A stretch of DNA of 64,000 nucleotides from Alphaproteobacteria bacterium (GTDB taxonomy: Bacteria; Pseudomonadota; Alphaproteobacteria; RF32; CAG-239). The translations under genes were made by a program, and so were the position numbers. Location of the stretch: positions 47,089 through 111,088 of the forward strand of contig JAFSUB010000018.1 of NCBI GenBank assembly GCA_017445475.1, read 5' to 3'. The notes beneath the pieces were generated by a model. It saw only the letters and a program-made list of their open reading frames with translations. It made no database searches and was not told the DNA's origin. Below, piece by piece: positions 1-60,193 of this stretch. Every line of letters starts with the position of its first letter. The first letter of the stretch is position 1.

Positions 1-49
1 ACAAGTAAAAATTTAGACGGCTTAAAATTTTTCATGAATATTTCTCCTA

Positions 50-1570
50 TTATTCTTTGAGTTGCATTGTTCGTCTATAATTCAATGCTTCAGCTATGTG
101 CATCTTATGCACTTTTTTTTCGTTTTGCAAGTCCGCAATTGTTCTTGCTAACCGCAATGTGCGGTGATAACCGCGTGCCGAAAGTTTGAGCTTGTCGGCA
201 AAATCAATTAAGAGCTGACGTGCGTCAGGCTCCAACTCAACGGCGTCTTCAAGCAAATTACCCGAAAGTTGCGCGTTTGTCAAAAGATTTATTTGCCCAA
301 AACGCTCGAAGCGTTCTTTTTGAATTTTTCGTGCCGCGACAACGCGCGACAAAACAGTTTGGGACGACTCGCCCTTTCTTTTTTCAAAAATATCCCACGG
401 GGAAACGGGCGGAACATAAACATTTATGTCGATTCTATCCATCAACGGTCCCGAAATTTTGGATTGATACTCTGCGCCGCATTTAGGTGCTTTCGGACAT
501 TCCTGACCGGCTTGCCCCAAAAAACCGCATCTGCAAGGATTCATCGCGGCAATTAATTGAAATTTTGCCGGATAGGTGTGATGATATTCCGCGCGCGAAA
601 TGCTGATTTTTCCGTTTTCGAGCGGTTGGCGCAGAGCTTCCAGTGTTGCACGGTTAAATTCCGGCAACTCGTCTAAAAACAAAACACCGTTATGTGCAAG
701 CGAAATTTCTCCCGGTTGAGCCTTCTTGCCGCCGCCGACAAGGGCAGGGGTTGACGCACTGTGGTGCGGACTGCGATAGGGCCGCTCAAAATTGAGCTCA
801 CCATCTTTAAGCACACCGGCAACAGAGTGAATGATGCTTGTTTCAAGAGCTTCGATGGGCGTTAAGGGCGGCAAAATGGAAGTAAGCCTTGAAGCCAGCA
901 TTGATTTTCCGGCGCCCGGCGGGCCGATCATCAGCATATTATGTGAACCTGCCGCGGCAATTTCGAGTGCGCGTTTGGCACTTTCCTGCCCCTTAATATC
1001 CGCTAAATCAAGTTTGTTTGCTTCAAGGGTGCGCACTTTTTTGTTTGGAAAAGGCAGGGTTTGAATGCCCTTAAAATGGTTAATCAGTGAAAGCAAATCA
1101 GGTGCGGCGACAATGTTTTTAAGACCGCTCCAAGCCGCTTCGCTTCCCTGGGCAAACGGGCAAATCAAACCTTTGTCGTCCTCATTTGCTTTGATTGCAA
1201 CGGGCAAAACGCCGTTGATGGGCATAAGCGAGCCGTCAAGGCCGAGCTCGCCCAAAACGAGATATTGACACAATTCTTCCTGTGGCAAAATTTGCATGGC
1301 ACAAAGCAAGCCGCAAGCTATTGCTAAATCAAAATGCGAACCTTCTTTAAGCAAATCCGCCGGTGCCAAATTGATGGTGATTCGTTTGGCCGGAAAAGAA
1401 ATGCCGATGGCTTCGAAAGCAGCCCTGACGCGCTCTTTGCTTTCGGCAATGGTTTTATCGGGCAGACCGACAATAGCAAAAGCTGGGATTCCCGCGCTCA
1501 TCTGCACCTGCAAGTCAACATCTAAAACGTCAAGTCCGCTGAAAGCGATTGTGTTTATTCTCGCTTGCAT
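50..1570 (-). CDS. comM: YifB/ComM family Mg-chelatase-like AAA+ ATPase
   Basis: N-terminal ChlI/Lon-like domain (IVGLPD..ESKERV, RITINLAPADLLKEGSHFDLAIA), Walker A GPPGAGKS, PGEISLAHNGVLFLDE, LSARGYHR C-terminus. Confidence 0.92.
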   Translation of the reverse strand: MQARINTIAFSGLDVLDVDLQVQMSAGIPAFAIVGLPDKTIAESKERVRAAFEAIGISFPAKRITINLAPADLLKEGSHFDLAIACGLLCAMQILPQEELCQYLVLGELGLDGSLMPINGVLPVAIKANEDDKGLICPFAQGSEAAWSGLKNIVAAPDLLSLINHFKGIQTLPFPNKKVRTLEANKLDLADIKGQESAKRALEIAAAGSHNMLMIGPPGAGKSMLASRLTSILPPLTPIEALETSIIHSVAGVLKDGELNFERPYRSPHHSASTPALVGGGKKAQPGEISLAHNGVLFLDELPEFNRATLEALRQPLENGKISISRAEYHHTYPAKFQLIAAMNPCRCGFLGQAGQECPKAPKCGAEYQSKISGPLMDRIDINVYVPPVSPWDIFEKRKGESSQTVLSRVVAARKIQKERFERFGQINLLTNAQLSGNLLEDAVELEPDARQLLIDFADKLKLSARGYHRTLRLARTIADLQNEKKVHKMHIAEALNYRRTMQLKE

Positions 1571-20860: not shown

Positions 20861-20999
20861 TCTTGCAAAAAAAATTAAGTTTTTTGCGTCGGTCAACGCT
20901 TATGTAATGCTTGCGGCGTTGCGCTGGCGCTTCTTGCAAGCAAAACATAAGCTACCGCTGCGAAAAAAAATTGCTCGTTTAAGAGCAATTTTTTTCCTC
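20861..20999 (-). mobile_element. ~140-nt structured element, copy inside a partial tRNA-Thr duplicate
   Basis: GAGG...GCAAGA ends and hairpin layout shared with 59441-59581 and 59680-59819. Confidence 0.75.
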
Positions 21000-21082
21000 G
21001 CCCCGACCCAAGTGGGTCGTGAGTTCTGCCTCCCTTGATATCAATACAAAAAAAGCCACCTTTAAGGTGGCTGTTTTTGTAT

Positions 21083-21158
21083 TGGTGCCGACAGAGAGAC
21101 TTGAACTCCCGACCCACTGATTACAAATCAGTTGCTCTACCAACTGAGCTATGTCGGC
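21083..21158 (-). tRNA. tRNA-Thr(TGT)
   Basis: GCCGACATAGCTCAGTTGGTAGAGCAACTGATTTGTAATCAGTGGGTCGGGAGTTCAAGTCTCTCTGTCGGCACCA. Confidence 0.97.
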
Positions 21159-48974: not shown

Positions 48975-49051
<77 letters not shown>

Positions 49052-49085
49052 ATAAAAAACCACCCTTTCAGGGGTGGTTTTTTAT

Positions 49086-49262
49086 TGATTATGGGGTGGG
49101 GTTTGAACCAACGGAGAGTTGGTTCACTACCAGCGAAAGCCAGACGGAAGTATGGCGGTCGGCTTAAAGCCGATGAGCGCCTGTGCGGCAAGCGAAAGCG
49201 AAGCCAAATCCTTCTCCCGCAACCATTACAAAAAGCCACCCAAAGGGTGGTTTTTTTATTGA
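49086..49262 (+). repeat. tRNA-fMet-linked unit: antisense T-arm copy, 80-nt insert, duplicated 3' end and terminator
   Basis: TTTGAACCAACG (49102-49113) antisense; GTTGGTTC[49126-49205]AAATCCTTCTCCCGCAACCA; second terminator. Confidence 0.85.
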
Positions 49263-52800: not shown

Positions 52801-52860
52801 GGCGCGAGCATATAAAATGCCTTGAACGGCATTTTATAGCGCAAGCGGCGAATTTTCCGA
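52801..52860 (+). repeat. 5' part of the ~140-nt element outside a tRNA
   Basis: GGCGCGAGCATATAAAATGCC-TTGAAC-GGCATTTTATAGCGCAAGCGGCG aligns to 59436-59486 with compensatory changes. Confidence 0.7.
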
Positions 52861-52944: not shown

Positions 52945-54009
52945 TTAAGAGCGGTTTTTCGTTTTGTTTTGCCAAAAATCAACAGAAACCGATCCTGAAT
53001 CCAAAATTCCTTTTTCTAAATTTTTTACCATTTTTTTAGAATCCTCACGTTCTTGACGGCCAAGTTTTATTATTTCTCGAAGCTCATTTTTCAGCGCTTT
53101 TAAATCTTCTTTAAAACCGCCTCGTTTTACGACGTGTTTTCGTCCGCCCTGTGTTTTTATTTCAAATTCTTCTTTTATATTAAGATTTTGTTCTACTTTT
53201 TTACGAAACCAAGCCTTCAAAGCCTGACGACCGGAAAGACCTTCATATGATACGTTAATGCCTTCTAATTTTCCGGATAAAGAAAATCTTGCCCACATTT
53301 CCATGCCATCAGGACGATCGATACGGAGAACATAATTATAATTGCCTTTAGTAGGCTTAGGCTCACGGGGTGCCTCCCGCCGTCGCAGTGCAACATTATC
53401 GGCGTCACGCGAAGAACGAAAATCGCCTGAATAACCTCCATAACGACCATAACACCAGTATTCACCTATCAAGCGTATTCCCCCCGGAAGCCATCCGTCT
53501 GTTAATTTACCGGCAGTATTGTATATCAGTGTTGTTCCGTCAGGACAACTTTCAAATATTTTAACACGTTTTCCTTTAGAACCAAAACACCACTCTGTTT
53601 CAGCACCATCGGGCATCTTTTCATACATCAACTCTCCGTCTTCCCAACGACGTTCATGCATATTTGGAATGTATTCATATTCGATGTCACGGACTATTTC
53701 ACCATTAATGAACGCATCGCCGTATTCTCGTATCTCACCATTTTTTAGTTTTTCTTTTACAATCACTTTTTCTTTTTTACTCAAATCTCTCGCAAAAAGA
53801 TTGGTATACTCATACCAAAATTGATCACCATCTTTTGTTTTTTCATATATCACATTGTTGTTTTTATCCCACGCCAAAACGGAGCTATCAGAATATTCTT
53901 CATAATGCTCTGCACGCGTATGGGCAAAAAAGGAAAAATACTCGATTTTACGAAGATATTCCTCTGTCCCATCATTTTTATCGGAATTCACCACTTTAAT
54001 ATCAGGCAT
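52945..54009 (-). CDS. Hypothetical protein with short beta-hairpin (YEK.PDG-like) repeats
   Basis: YEKTKDG, YEKMPDG, FESCPDG repeats; basic C-terminus; AT-rich. Confidence 0.72.
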   Translation of the reverse strand: MPDIKVVNSDKNDGTEEYLRKIEYFSFFAHTRAEHYEEYSDSSVLAWDKNNNVIYEKTKDGDQFWYEYTNLFARDLSKKEKVIVKEKLKNGEIREYGDAFINGEIVRDIEYEYIPNMHERRWEDGELMYEKMPDGAETEWCFGSKGKRVKIFESCPDGTTLIYNTAGKLTDGWLPGGIRLIGEYWCYGRYGGYSGDFRSSRDADNVALRRREAPREPKPTKGNYNYVLRIDRPDGMEMWARFSLSGKLEGINVSYEGLSGRQALKAWFRKKVEQNLNIKEEFEIKTQGGRKHVVKRGGFKEDLKALKNELREIIKLGRQEREDSKKMVKNLEKGILDSGSVSVDFWQNKTKNRS

Positions 54010-54294
54010 CTTTATAATCCTTGTAATTTACTTTTGAACTTAATTAAAGCAAGAAAATAGGAAGAACTTAGAAACTCCCTACCATTAAAATTTTTCCAAT
54101 CAGGCTTTCCGGTCGTTTTGCCGGTTGTCATATCTGAAAATGTCAAGCCTCGATTTCGCATTTTCTCTTCCCTTCACATTTTGACTATAACAAATTAAAT
54201 TTGTTTTGTCTAGATGCTTTTTGCATTTTTTACAAATCCCCTCCCCACACCCCATGGCTAATTTGATGCTGAAAGCCGAGCACGCAACCCCAAC

Positions 54295-54341
54295 CGTCAT
54301 GCCTATTTTTTGAGCGTGCTCAAAAAATTCAAGGCATCTTC
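54295..54341 (+). repeat. CGTC-type REP palindrome
   Basis: CGTCATGCCT-TTTTTGAGC/GCTCAAAAA-TC-AAGGCATCTTC. Confidence 0.7.
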
Positions 54342-54401
54342 GAATTTTTGCTTTACATTCAAGAAAAATCTTCCATAATAACGTTGCAATCGATTGGTTG
54401 C

Positions 54402-54510
54402 GGTGCTTAATAGGCATCTTACAGTGAACTCCTCTTTTGGGGAGCGGACGATATAAGGCTTTGCGCGAATCAGTCCATCTGTGCTGTAACAGTTGATTAG
54501 CTCCCCGTTT
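54402..54510 (+). ncRNA. Putative C4-like structured antisense RNA leader
   Basis: GGGGAGC/GCTCCCC closing stem, GGAC/GTCC and CTGT/ACAG arms; CTGTAA complementary to upstream TTACAG. Confidence 0.5.
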
Positions 54511-59146: not shown

Positions 59147-59281
59147 GTCTGTTATGTTGAAAAATATTGTTCAAATGCTAGCAAATAAGTCTTAACGTTT
59201 TATAAAGATGAAAAAAATTGCAAAATATAAAAAAAGGTCTTGCAAAACGAGTTTGTCTGTGATATGCGTTTTTTTGCTTTC

Positions 59282-59358
<77 letters not shown>

Positions 59359-59440
59359 ATAAAAAACACCTCCTTTACGGAGGTTTTTTGTTGATGAAAA
59401 TAATAAAAACTGCTCGAACTTGTGACCTCGATAGAGGCGT

Positions 59441-59581
59441 GAGGATAAAAAATGCCTTAAACGGCATTTTTTACCGCAAATGGCGCAGTTTTGTTCATTT
59501 GCAAGGAAAGCGACAGCAACCGCAGCAAATGTTACAAAACAAGTGACCGAAGCGAAGTTGCTTTTTAAGCAACGAGCAAGA
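59441..59581 (+). mobile_element. ~140-nt structured element, copy behind tRNA-Val
   Basis: Highly similar to 59680-59819; preceded by a 17-nt antisense of tRNA-Val (59413-59429). Confidence 0.8.
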
Positions 59582-59638
59582 AAGATGTCGGAGACATCTT
59601 GCGATCAGAAATATTATTATTGATGAACATAAAAAAAA

Positions 59639-59855
59639 CGGGACATAGCTCAGCCTGGTAGAGCGCTTGCTTTGGGCGCGAGGATAAAAACAACCTCAAA
59701 ATGTTGTTTTTACCGCAAACGGCGAAGTTTTGTTAACGAGCAAGGGAAGCGACAGCAACCGCGGCAAGTTTACAAAACGAGTGACCGAAGCGAAGTTGCT
59801 TTTTAAGCAACGAGCAAGAAAGATGTCGGAGGTTCAAGTCCTCTTGTCCCGACCA
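59639..59855 (+). tRNA. tRNA-Pro(TGG) interrupted by a 140-nt insert (intron-like or pseudogene)
   Basis: 5' half CGGGACATAGCTCAGCCTGGTAGAGCGCTTGCTTTGGGCGC and 3' half AAGATGTCGGAGGTTCAAGTCCTCTTGTCCCGACCA join to a 77-nt cloverleaf. Confidence 0.85.
59680..59819 (+). mobile_element. ~140-nt structured element inside the tRNA-Pro anticodon arm
   Basis: GAGG...GCAAGA; three-hairpin layout conserved among copies. Confidence 0.82.
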
Positions 59856-59908
59856 TTTTATGATATGGTGTGTGGATTGTATATGATTGAAAAAAAACGG
59901 AGGTTTTC

Positions 59909-60193
59909 GTGAAAAAAGTGGTTTTTGCCTGTTTGATGATTTTTGCTCTTTGTTCTTGCACGACAACTTCCGTTCCACCGATGAGAACGAAAGCCAAAAA
60001 TCCGATTGAAATGGGTGATAAGTTTGGCACAAAGTGCGCTTTATACATTTTGGGAATTTTCGGGCCGTTTGGGAATATGTCTATTCCGGAAGCGGCAGCT
60101 GCCGGCGGTGTGACAAAAGTTACGTATTACGACATTACTTCTAAAACTTATATTTTGTATACCAAACGTTGTCTTAATGTGTACGGATATTAA
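59909..60193 (+). CDS. TRL-like family small lipoprotein
   Basis: Lipobox LCSC; G.KCA..ILG.F...GNMSI.EAA..GGVTKV...D; GTG start with GGAGG SD. Confidence 0.8.
   Translation: MKKVVFACLMIFALCSCTTTSVPPMRTKAKNPIEMGDKFGTKCALYILGIFGPFGNMSIPEAAAAGGVTKVTYYDITSKTYILYTKRCLNVYGY

What the first reader, a model, noticed from the sequence alone, without database searches (positions are those of the whole stretch)
59639..59855. tRNA-Pro(UGG) split in the anticodon arm by a 140-nt structured insert that can be removed cleanly
Seen: deleting 59680-59819 joins ...CTTGC TT TGG GC GC to AAG ATGTC GGAGG TTCAAGT CCTCT TGTCCCG ACCA. This gives a 77-nt cloverleaf with every stem intact and no decay in either half. 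The insert's own 3' end (GAGCAAG) could also pair with CTTGC, so the unprocessed RNA could keep a tRNA shape with the insert looped out at 37/38. Nearby, 59593-59603 (GACATCTTGCG) is the reverse complement of the element-free junction CGC|AAGATGTC; only 3 nt cross the junction, so this support is modest. Established: tRNA-Pro(UGG) is normally needed for CCA codons, and known bacterial tRNA introns are group I (about 200 nt or more, 5' exon ending in U), which this insert does not fit. Inference: it is a new removable tRNA intervening sequence (RNA splicing or DNA excision), a tRNA inactivated by a targeted MITE, or a collapse of an intact tRNA with its linked repeat.
Basis: partly seen in the sequence, partly recalled or inferred. 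Interest (0 to 1): 0.88.

Follow-up and report, generated by a model that had tools for sequence, protein, structure and literature searches.

The report
tRNA-linked repeat splitting a spare tRNA-Pro
The 140-base insert in this proline tRNA gene is one copy of a structured repeat that clusters around tRNA genes in a family of gut bacteria; it has broken a spare gene copy and does not look like a new kind of intron.

Summary
Two halves of tRNA-Pro(UGG), 59639-59679 and 59820-59855, flank a 140-145 nt insert.

The intron reading does not hold:
- An intact tRNA-Pro(UGG) lies on another contig. It matches the joined halves at 76 of 77 positions.
- The insert is one of about 20 copies of a structured element (here "S") in this 1.33 Mb genome. 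S occurs in 24 of 24 sampled genomes of the bacterial family.
- S shows strong covariation and has no Rfam match.

S normally sits in a module beside an intact tRNA. The module holds a partial copy of that tRNA, interrupted by S in its T, anticodon or D loop, plus an antisense tRNA piece.

The tyrT repeats of E. coli, which belong to the tRNA-linked repeats (TLRs) known since 1978, have the same layout.

Five same-genus relatives carry [tRNA-Pro 5' half]-S-[short sense and antisense pieces]-spacer-[intact tRNA-Pro]. Here the last stretch is missing, most simply through a deletion between two 12-nt repeats.

Another sample holds an intact tRNA at this very locus. A third sample confirms the S-to-3'-half junction.

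Verdict: a DNA-level rearrangement of a redundant gene within a new TLR family. RNA data were not available.

The parts
59282..59358 (+). Intact tRNA-Val(GAC), the tRNA to which the upstream repeat copy is linked
   Evidence: ARAGORN; Rfam tRNA 70.1 bits
59359..59392 (+). Terminator-like hairpin with a T run, directly after tRNA-Val
   Evidence: Read from the sequence. The same layout follows other tRNAs of the genome
59413..59429 (+). Antisense copy of tRNA-Val bases 44-60 (variable loop, T-stem 5' strand, T loop), the 'fold-back' piece of the module
   Evidence: 17-nt perfect inverted repeat with 59325-59341 (I1); blastn-short ANTI 60..44
59436..59581 (+). S copy A (146 nt). Its left flank is of the tRNA-Val type and its right flank of the tRNA-Pro type
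   Evidence: Covariance model R1, 147 bits, E 3.2e-38; alignment A1
59582..59593 (+). C1: 12-nt sense piece of tRNA-Pro (end of anticodon stem, variable loop, start of T stem). It is repeated at 59820-59831
   Evidence: Direct repeat D2 runs through it. The same piece follows S in relatives
59594..59603 (+). C1': antisense of the tRNA-Pro anticodon-stem 3' strand and variable loop. It forms a hairpin with C1
   Evidence: Sequence. The matching antisense pieces in G002, G049, G050, G007, G005, G009 and G011 follow their own tRNA-Pro
59604..59638 (+). AT-rich spacer. In relatives it precedes the intact tRNA-Pro
   Evidence: An X1 contig covers 59564-59668 with no differences
59639..59679 (+). 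5' half of tRNA-Pro(UGG): acceptor strand, D arm, anticodon-stem 5' strand and loop. Its last bases overlap the GGCGC start of S
   Evidence: 38 of 38 identical to the C12 tRNA-Pro
59675..59819 (+). This is the insert in question
   Evidence: Model R1, 148.4 bits, E 1.2e-38; 86% identical to copy A
59820..59855 (+). 3' half of tRNA-Pro(UGG), through to the encoded CCA
   Evidence: 36 of 36 identical to the C12 tRNA-Pro. An X4 contig spans 59770-59883

Best explanation
The insert is a copy of S, a roughly 135-145 nt structured element. S is the core of a family of tRNA-linked repeats (TLRs) in a family of uncultured gut and rumen Alphaproteobacteria.

In its usual setting S interrupts a partial, non-functional copy of a neighbouring tRNA at a loop, next to an intact tRNA:
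- at the T loop for most tRNAs;
- at the anticodon loop for tRNA-Pro;
- at the D loop for tRNA-Ala.

For tRNA-Pro the normal unit is [5' half]-S-[12-nt sense piece C1]-[antisense piece C1']-spacer-[intact tRNA-Pro]. It is sometimes present in two tandem units.

At this locus the stretch C1'-spacer-5' half-AGC is missing after copy B. The 5' half of the last repeat unit and the 3' part of the once-intact tRNA therefore now flank S directly. The simplest route (inferred) is a deletion between the two 12-nt C1 repeats.

The result is a broken, redundant gene. CCA codons are served by the intact tRNA-Pro(UGG) on contig C12. Removal of the insert at the RNA level is neither needed nor indicated.

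Shown: family membership, the module architecture, the intact paralog, the arrangement in relatives, and the polymorphism between samples.
Inferred: the deletion route, and that the split gene gives no working tRNA.
For: **Intact paralog**
- The genome (99.6% complete) holds tRNA-Pro(tgg) at C12 26683-26759.
- It matches the joined halves at 76 of 77 positions and has a paralogous downstream gene (83% over 376 nt).

**Repeat family**
- The insert has 13 BLAST matches at E <= 1e-7 in its own genome.
- Model R1 finds 20 full-length matches at E <= 1.2e-7.
- R1 matches in 27 of 41 genomes, including 24 of 24 of the same family.

**Structure**
- 19 of 31 pairs are compensated among 11 own copies.
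- On 94 distinct copies from relatives, 94% of cells pair and 30 of 31 pairs are compensated. None of 500 shuffles reaches these values.

**tRNA linkage**
- 16 of 20 own copies lie next to a tRNA or carry tRNA-derived flanks.
- In relatives, 52 of 94 copies have a tRNA within 300 nt.

**Normal tRNA-Pro unit with an intact tRNA**
- Seen in G002, G050 and G049, in G009, G007, G005 and G011, in a G011 Pro-GGG locus and in G014.
- G002 and G009, of the same genus, have the two-unit form that a single deletion would turn into the arrangement here.

**Polymorphism between samples**
- In run X2, one 3107-nt contig reads 18 nt of the 5' half, then AGC, then the 3' half, then this locus's own flank at 431 of 431. 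That is an intact tRNA at this locus.
- The S-to-3'-half junction pattern occurs in only 2 of 282 family genomes. The other case, G052, has a truncated 5' half and so cannot be a gene.
- ARAGORN in intron mode finds no other S-split tRNA in 242 loci (1.07 Mb) from relatives and other records.

**Known precedent**
- The E. coli tyrT/tyrV repeats show the same layout when read directly.
- TLRs are described in PMC8144298 (passages read).
Against: - Both halves are perfect copies of the working tRNA. In same-genus relatives the 5' half inside the repeat unit carries D-loop changes. Perfect halves fit a fresh insertion into an intact gene at least as well as a deletion. G049, of another genus, does have a perfect 5' half in its unit.
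- The deletion precursor was not seen directly for this strain. The X2 contig shows only 18 nt upstream of the junction.
- No RNA data exist for this organism, so processing of the split transcript is untested.
- G-U and A-C mismatches in S helices are equal in number (49 against 45). This says nothing on whether S acts as RNA or as DNA.
- The enzyme or process that builds these modules is unknown.
Confidence: 0.5

Rival explanations
1. Fresh insertion. S is an active mobile element that aims at tRNA loops. Copy B inserted directly into the anticodon loop of an intact second tRNA-Pro gene and replaced 3 nt (AGC). The event was tolerated because the C12 copy remains. The split gene would then be the primary insertion product, and the usual modules would be later, repaired forms.
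For: - Both halves are perfect: 38 of 38 and 36 of 36.
- Run X2 holds an intact tRNA at this locus with an identical flank.
- S always lies in a loop (T, anticodon or D) of a tRNA copy and replaces 2-4 nt.
- S occurs in both orientations relative to the tRNA: 38 same strand, 14 opposite.
- Every module in this genome carries a cargo between its two sense pieces; none is empty.
Against: - No near-identical donor copy exists in the genome. The best full-length match to copy B is copy A at 86%.
- Copy B has the 3' hairpin typical of tRNA-Pro units and sits between exactly the same junctions as the resident tRNA-Pro units of relatives.
- No transposase family is shared by all S-rich genomes. Y1 transposase was found in 2 of 5, IS110 in 1 of 5, reverse transcriptase in 2 of 5 and TnpB in 0 of 5. 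Only tyrosine recombinases were in all 5.
- No target duplication or terminal inverted repeat of S itself was seen.
Confidence: 0.22
2. RNA-level intervening sequence. The split gene is transcribed and S is removed, either by self-cleavage and ligation or by host enzymes. This would give a working tRNA-Pro(UGG).
For: - Removal of 59680-59819 gives a regular 77-nt cloverleaf.
- In the predicted fold the acceptor and T arms form and S folds on its own.
- S is strongly structured.
- In E. coli, some TLR RNAs are transcribed and processed (PMC8144298, passages read).
Against: - An intact paralog removes the need for splicing.
- No group I intron match appears at E <= 10. Known bacterial tRNA introns are group I (Williams preprint, first of two parts of the text read).
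- Other S copies interrupt only partial tRNA copies, which could not yield a tRNA even if S were removed.
- S lies in the opposite orientation in 14 of the 52 tRNA-linked copies.
- Complete halves flanking S were found in this genome only.
Confidence: 0.07
3. Assembly artefact. The true genome has the normal unit followed by an intact tRNA, and the assembler collapsed the repeats.
For: - The region is full of repeats, and public contigs break there.
- The joined, intact form is present in runs X1 and X2.
- Many contigs of this assembly end in S copies.
Against: - The repeat shared between the two paths is only 12 nt, too short for a false join at usual k-mer sizes (inference).
- A contig from a different study (X4, 122 nt, 2 differences) runs from 59770 to 59883. 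It covers S copy B, the 3' half and this locus's own flank.
- An X1 contig covers 59564-59668 without a difference.
- The intact form seen in X1 can come from the C12 paralog.
Confidence: 0.05

Closest known systems
tRNA-linked repeats (TLRs) of Escherichia coli, e.g. the RtT repeats of the tyrT-tyrV operon (Rfam RF00391)
   Same: - They lie in tRNA operons, after the tRNA and a first terminator.
- They end with a copy of the 3' end of the upstream tRNA and are followed by a second terminator.
- They can be tandem.
- Read directly, the E. coli units also hold an antisense copy of the T-arm region, then a short sense T-loop piece, then a 70-nt core, then the 19-nt tRNA 3' end.
- PMC8144298 (passages read) reports 22 TLRs at ten loci, each with 18-19 bp identical to the 3' end of the upstream tRNA or rRNA gene and with no known function.
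   Different: - The Rfam RtT model hits the 4 E. coli units (133-137 bits). It hits none of 7 module loci of this genome at E <= 1 and not the S copies. S is a different and longer core.
- S units also occur upstream of tRNA-Pro and tRNA-Ala, carrying the tRNA's 5' part. The passages read do not describe this for E. coli.
- S occurs in both orientations inside modules.
- Here one unit splits a complete tRNA.
[quoted passage not shown]
   Same: They interrupt a bacterial tRNA gene in or near the anticodon loop, and clean removal restores a cloverleaf.
   Different: - No match to the Rfam group I model at E <= 10.
- The cut lies in the 3' strand of the anticodon stem or after G37. It is not after a U inside the loop, as mapped by Williams.
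- S is multi-copy and mostly lies outside complete tRNAs.
Displaced tRNA 3' fragments left by integrase-borne islands at tRNA genes
   Same: A direct repeat of the tRNA 3' end bounds DNA inserted after an intact tRNA. Tandem accretion occurs, as in the tRNA-Ala array across contigs C23 and C8.
   Different: - The inserted DNA is only about 250 nt with no genes.
- An integrase is nearby for only one own copy (C3).
- At least 25 different tRNA species are involved.
- The repeated 3' fragment is separated from its short 5' partner by S, and an antisense tRNA piece is always present.
MITEs and palindromic repeats that insert into RNA genes
   Same: Small, structured, multi-copy and without an ORF. 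They can interrupt genes.
   Different: - No terminal inverted repeats of S itself and no target duplication; 2-4 nt of the target are replaced instead.
- No partner transposase was identified.

Membership tests
Group I intron in tRNA | Catalytic core recognised by the Rfam Intron_gpI covariance model | tested here: not met
   cmscan of 59200-60000, both strands, E <= 10: no group I hit among 20 rows. Gathering scan of the whole window: 4 tRNAs only.
Group I intron in tRNA | Insertion within the 7-nt anticodon loop, 5' exon ending in U (rarely C), intron ending in G | tested here: not met
Group I intron in tRNA | Self-splicing of the transcript | not testable with these tools
   No RNA run holds the stretch. 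In-vitro transcription is needed.
tRNA-linked repeats (TLR) | Located in a tRNA (or rRNA) operon, next to the gene | tested here: met
   16 of 20 own S copies adjoin a tRNA or carry tRNA-derived flanks. 52 of 94 copies in relatives have a tRNA within 300 nt.
tRNA-linked repeats (TLR) | The unit's 3' end repeats about 18-19 bp of the 3' end of the upstream tRNA | tested here: met
   Sense repeats of 15-24 nt, most of them reaching the CCA, follow S after tRNA-Val(cac), Met, Ser, Thr, Lys and Ala. Downstream sense repeats of at least 10 nt were found for 17 of 40 tRNAs, 11 of them of 15 nt or more. In the copy in question the repeat is the whole 36-nt 3' half.
tRNA-linked repeats (TLR) | Sequence and structure match to the one curated TLR model (Rfam RtT, RF00391) | tested here: not met
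   No RtT hit on S. A hit of 14.9 bits, E 3.1, fell on the second cargo family. 0 of 7 own module loci matched at E <= 1, while 4 E. coli units scored 133-137 bits.
tRNA-linked repeats (TLR) | Transcribed by read-through and processed to a discrete RNA | not testable with these tools
   No RNA runs.
MITE / IS200-IS605-derived palindromic element | Terminal inverted repeats or subterminal hairpins with a cognate transposase in the genome, and a fixed target motif | tested here: inconclusive
   S has hairpins near both ends, and its left flanks end in GG. No Y1 transposase or TnpB was found in this genome. No target duplication was seen.
Integrase-mediated island at a tRNA gene | Tyrosine integrase gene beside the attachment site | tested here: not met
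   This genome has 8 tyrosine recombinase matches. Only the C3 copy of S lies beside one, 270 nt away. None lies beside the tRNA-Pro locus.

The most novel reading that the evidence does not exclude
S, and the second cargo family seen in the same modules, could be elements that home to the single-stranded loops of tRNA genes (T, anticodon, D) in either orientation.

The odd TLR layout would then be the scar of how cells survive such hits: tRNA, terminator, antisense tRNA piece, short sense piece, cargo, tRNA 3' end.

On this reading the split tRNA-Pro is a rare unrepaired primary insertion, visible only because the gene is duplicated. It would explain the origin of tRNA-linked repeats, which have been unexplained in E. 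coli since 1978.
Probability: 0.2. Interest if true: 0.8.

Novelty: new variant of a known kind. Interest (0 to 1): 0.45.

Why it matters
- The finding removes a tempting false positive. It is not a new class of bacterial tRNA intron.
- It shows that tRNA-linked repeats, known from E. coli for decades without a function, exist as a large and strongly structured family in small-genome gut Alphaproteobacteria. Copies run from 1 to about 70 per genome.
- The family includes forms not described for E. coli in the passages I read: units upstream of the tRNA that carry its 5' half, the core in either orientation, and one unit that splits a whole gene.
- The many diverged copies give covariation data and natural presence/absence variants. 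With these, the origin and function of such repeats can be tested.
- For annotation: split tRNA calls in these genomes should be checked against the repeat family before they are read as introns.

Tried and rejected
- **Known RNA family.** Rfam gave no match at gathering level for the window or at E <= 10 for 59200-60000. Hammerhead-like motifs in the second cargo family gave no Rfam hit either.
- **Guide-RNA ideas** (bridge RNA, omega RNA). I dropped them for three reasons. The flanks are sense tRNA pieces that reach the gene's natural ends. S occurs in both orientations. TnpB was found in 0 of 5 genomes and IS110 in 1 of 5.
- **Strand test by wobble pairs.** G-U 49 against A-C 45: uninformative.
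- **Retro-element idea** (the antisense piece as a primer-binding site). Reverse transcriptase was found in only 2 of 5 S-rich genomes.
- **Phage or plasmid origin.** No blastn match in the phage or plasmid collections. A motif scan of viral contigs gave 8 hits, and none is an S copy by the model. The second scan (119 or more hits) is at the level I estimate for chance and was not followed.
- **Synteny of the tRNA-Met module across the genus**. The assemblies are too broken at the repeats to give filled and empty pairs.
- **Neighbouring ORFs 52945-54009 and 54100-54417.** No Pfam family.
- **Expression.** No RNA holder was listed for the stretch.
- **Part without cover.** No listed X1 piece spans the two S junctions of the split gene (204 pieces were not shown).
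- Supplements of the papers were not opened. They may hold the list and sequences of the E. coli TLRs.

Full report
**What is in the sequence**

- ARAGORN in default mode and Rfam at gathering level do not report it.
- ARAGORN in intron mode reports tRNA-Pro(tgg) with a 136-nt intron after base 37.
- The joined halves differ from a regular tRNA-Pro(UGG) of the same genome at 1 of 77 positions.
- The 217-nt stretch folds better than all 200 shuffles (z = -3.28). The acceptor and T arms form and the insert folds on its own.

The window lies on contig C5 of a 1.33 Mb assembly (27 contigs, 99.6% complete). ARAGORN finds 40 tRNAs in it. Among them are an intact tRNA-Pro(tgg) on C12 (26683-26759, minus strand) and tRNA-Pro(cgg) and tRNA-Pro(ggg). 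The C12 gene is followed by a paralog of the small gene that follows the split copy (83% over 376 nt). CCA codons therefore do not depend on the split gene.

**The insert is a member of a repeat family**

- A second copy (copy A, 59436-59581) lies 239 nt upstream. It is 81% identical over the first 93 nt and 98% over the last 62 nt.
- BLAST finds 13 matches at E <= 1e-7 in the genome.
- I aligned 11 copies (A1). RNAalifold predicts 31 pairs, 19 of them with compensatory changes.
- A covariance model (R1) finds 20 full-length matches at E <= 1.2e-7 in the genome.
- R1 matches in 27 of 41 genomes, including all 24 of the same family, with 1 to about 70 matches each.
- On 94 distinct copies from relatives, 94% of cells pair and 30 of 31 pairs show changes on both sides. 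No shuffle out of 500 reaches the observed values, and slid controls pair at 41-50%.
- G-U and A-C mismatches are equally frequent (49 against 45), so the helices give no hint of a transcribed strand.
- Rfam has no family for it.
- A motif scan of public genomes returns mostly uncultured gut and rumen Alphaproteobacteria MAGs (record titles). The GTDB name of the family is not given by the tools.

I call the element S.

**S is tied to tRNA genes in a fixed module**

In this genome 16 of 20 copies adjoin a tRNA or carry flanks derived from one.

The usual layout is:
tRNA, then a terminator hairpin, then an antisense copy of the tRNA's 3' third (often decayed), then a short turn, then a short sense piece ending in the T-stem 5' strand, then S, then a sense copy of the tRNA from the T loop to the CCA (15-24 nt), then a second terminator.
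- S replaces 2-4 nt of the loop.
- The antisense piece scores 10-20 in 16 modules against 5-8 for 8 control tRNAs without a module.
- 17 of 40 tRNAs have a downstream sense repeat of at least 10 nt of their own sequence within 450 nt. In 11 of them it is 15 nt or longer and lies in the 3' part.
- Some of these modules carry a different, shorter core in place of S.

In relatives, of 94 distinct S copies:
- 26 lie downstream of a tRNA on the same strand;
- 14 lie beside a tRNA on the opposite strand, at the 3' side of S;
- 12 lie upstream of a tRNA on the same strand (tRNA-Pro 10, tRNA-Ala 2);
- 23 sit near a locus edge;
- 19 have no tRNA within 300 nt.

In one opposite-strand case read in full (tRNA-Met of G006), S lies after the tRNA's 3' end and only S is flipped; the tRNA-derived pieces keep the tRNA's sense.

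**The normal tRNA-Pro unit**

G002 (tRNA-Pro UGG) and G050 and G049 (tRNA-Pro GGG) show this unit:
[5' half up to the anticodon loop]-S-[12-13 nt sense piece of anticodon-stem end, variable loop and T-stem start]-[10-12 nt antisense piece]-AT-rich spacer-[intact tRNA-Pro].
- The same unit is present in the same-genus genomes G009, G007, G005 and G011, in G014 and at a G011 Pro-GGG locus.
- The antisense piece follows the intact tRNA across the S junction. In G049 it covers 5 nt that are absent beside S. It therefore derives from an uninterrupted tRNA.
- G002 and G009 have two units in tandem before the intact tRNA, the first truncated.
- The tRNA-Pro loci of G007 and G005 lie after the same upstream gene as the C12 tRNA of this genome. 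C12 thus looks like the same locus without a unit.

**What differs here**

The local order is:
tRNA-Val, terminator, antisense Val piece, S copy A, C1, C1', spacer, 5' half, S copy B, C1 continuing as the rest of the tRNA.

Compared with the two-unit arrays of G002 and G009, the only missing part is C1'-spacer-5' half-AGC between the second C1 and the C1 inside the intact tRNA. That stretch is about 95-100 nt. A deletion between the two 12-nt C1 repeats gives exactly this (inference).

Copy A is a chimera, with a Val-type left flank and a Pro-type right end. This points to recombination between units.

**Evidence from public runs** (all DNA, kept as contigs)

- In X2, a 3107-nt contig reads 18 nt of the 5' half, then AGC, then the 3' half and this locus's own downstream flank with 0 differences in 431 nt. 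That is an intact tRNA at this locus in another sample.
- In X4, from another study, a 122-nt contig runs from 59770 to 59883 with 2 differences. It bridges S copy B, the 3' half and the flank, so the split form is real outside the assembly.
- An X1 contig covers 59564-59668 without a difference.
- The joined form seen in X1 can come from the C12 paralog.
- The repeat shared by the two paths is only 12 nt, which makes a false assembly join unlikely (inference).

**How often a complete split occurs**

- A pattern for S end plus C1 plus continuing T arm matches 2 of 282 genomes of the family. The other case, G052, has only the last 16 nt of the 5' half and no tRNA call in 3 kb.
- ARAGORN in intron mode finds no other S-split tRNA in 242 fetched loci, 1.07 Mb.

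If S were a spliced intron, complete hosts should be common and some genomes should depend on them. Neither was seen in those searched.

**Comparison with what is known**

- Known bacterial tRNA introns are group I and lie inside the anticodon loop (Williams preprint, first of two parts of the text read). S gives no group I signal.
- The close match is the tRNA-linked repeats of E. coli. PMC8144298 (passages read) describes 22 TLRs at ten loci. Each has 18-19 bp at its 3' end identical to the 3' end of the upstream tRNA or rRNA gene, with no known function. Three rrn-linked members are transcribed by terminator read-through, processed, and bound by Hfq and CsrA in vitro.
- I read the tyrT-tyrV region of E. 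coli K-12. Each unit holds a decayed antisense copy of the T-arm region (10 nt exact), a 4-nt turn, a sense T-loop piece, a core of about 70 nt, and the 19-nt tRNA 3' end. This is the same layout as here.
- The Rfam RtT model scores 133-137 bits on the four E. coli units but does not match S or 7 module loci of this genome at E <= 1.

S therefore works like a TLR in its architecture, but it is not a member of the one curated TLR family. A preprint passage calls rtT RNA stress-responsive with an unknown mode of action.

**What builds the modules**

This is open. Among five S-rich genomes:
- only tyrosine recombinases are present in all five;
- Y1 transposase is in 2;
- IS110 is in 1;
- reverse transcriptase is in 2;
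- TnpB is in 0.

S was not found in phage, plasmid or viral-contig collections.

The direct-inverted-direct layout, with joints at hairpins, resembles tandem inversion duplications described for Salmonella. That is my recall and was not checked in a paper.

Because every module seen here holds a cargo between its two sense pieces, a link between cargo insertion and module formation cannot be excluded. That is the novel case.

**Verdict**

- The insert is a tRNA-linked repeat core. The split tRNA-Pro is a DNA-level rearrangement of a redundant gene. I put about 0.8 on this general reading.
- Within it, deletion in a two-unit array gets about 0.5 and fresh insertion about 0.2.
- RNA-level removal gets about 0.07 and assembly error about 0.05.

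The family is a new variant of a known but unexplained kind.

Noticed in passing
window 49052-49230 (after tRNA-Met 48975-49051); also G000 C8, C10, C11, C12 and C15: A second structured core ('cargo-2', about 75-100 nt, with conserved AGCGAAAG and GATGAGCGC and covarying hairpins) sits in the same kind of module after tRNA-Met, Ser(GGA), Ser(TGA), Gly(CCC), Pro(GGG) and Arg(ACG). It shares a short motif with the E. coli RtT core but is not hit by the Rfam RtT model.
   Followed up: partly
window 20861-21004 (-), after tRNA-Thr 21083-21158: Another, more diverged S copy (54.7 bits) in a normal downstream module. The 21-nt tRNA-Thr 3' end is repeated after it.
   Followed up: partly
window 52801-52852 (+): Only the first 52 nt or so of an S copy, then unrelated sequence and a 354-aa ORF (52945-54009, minus strand) with no Pfam family. 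Its left flank is the same C-rich sequence that flanks the S copies on C26 and C3. Those flanks are inverted repeats of one another.
   Followed up: partly
L429 (E. coli K-12 NC_000913.3 1286000-1288000): The classic tyrT/tyrV RtT repeats contain an antisense copy of the tRNA-Tyr T-arm region just before a sense T-loop piece. The core therefore sits in the T loop of a partial tRNA copy, as in the modules here. The passages I read do not mention this.
   Followed up: partly
whole genome G000: ARAGORN finds no tmRNA gene in a 99.6% complete genome. Alphaproteobacteria have two-piece tmRNA (my recall), which may simply be missed.
   Followed up: no
G000 C17 (2777-nt contig): A single IS110-family transposase ORF (320 aa) lies about 300 nt from tRNA-Leu(cag), on a short contig. 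tRNA-Leu(cag) is present twice in the assembly.
   Followed up: no
G000 C23 start and C8 start: Two contigs end in the same S module downstream of tRNA-Ala(cgc). Joined, they give two tandem units whose last tRNA 3' copy is decayed. Many contig ends of this and related assemblies fall in S copies.
   Followed up: partly
L427 (G009 C54) and L066 (G004 C7): S copies directly abutting: the second copy starts at GAGGAT, without the first 5 nt. There are also tandem units, each with the first 19 nt of tRNA-Ala joined to S in the D loop, upstream of an intact tRNA-Ala.
   Followed up: no
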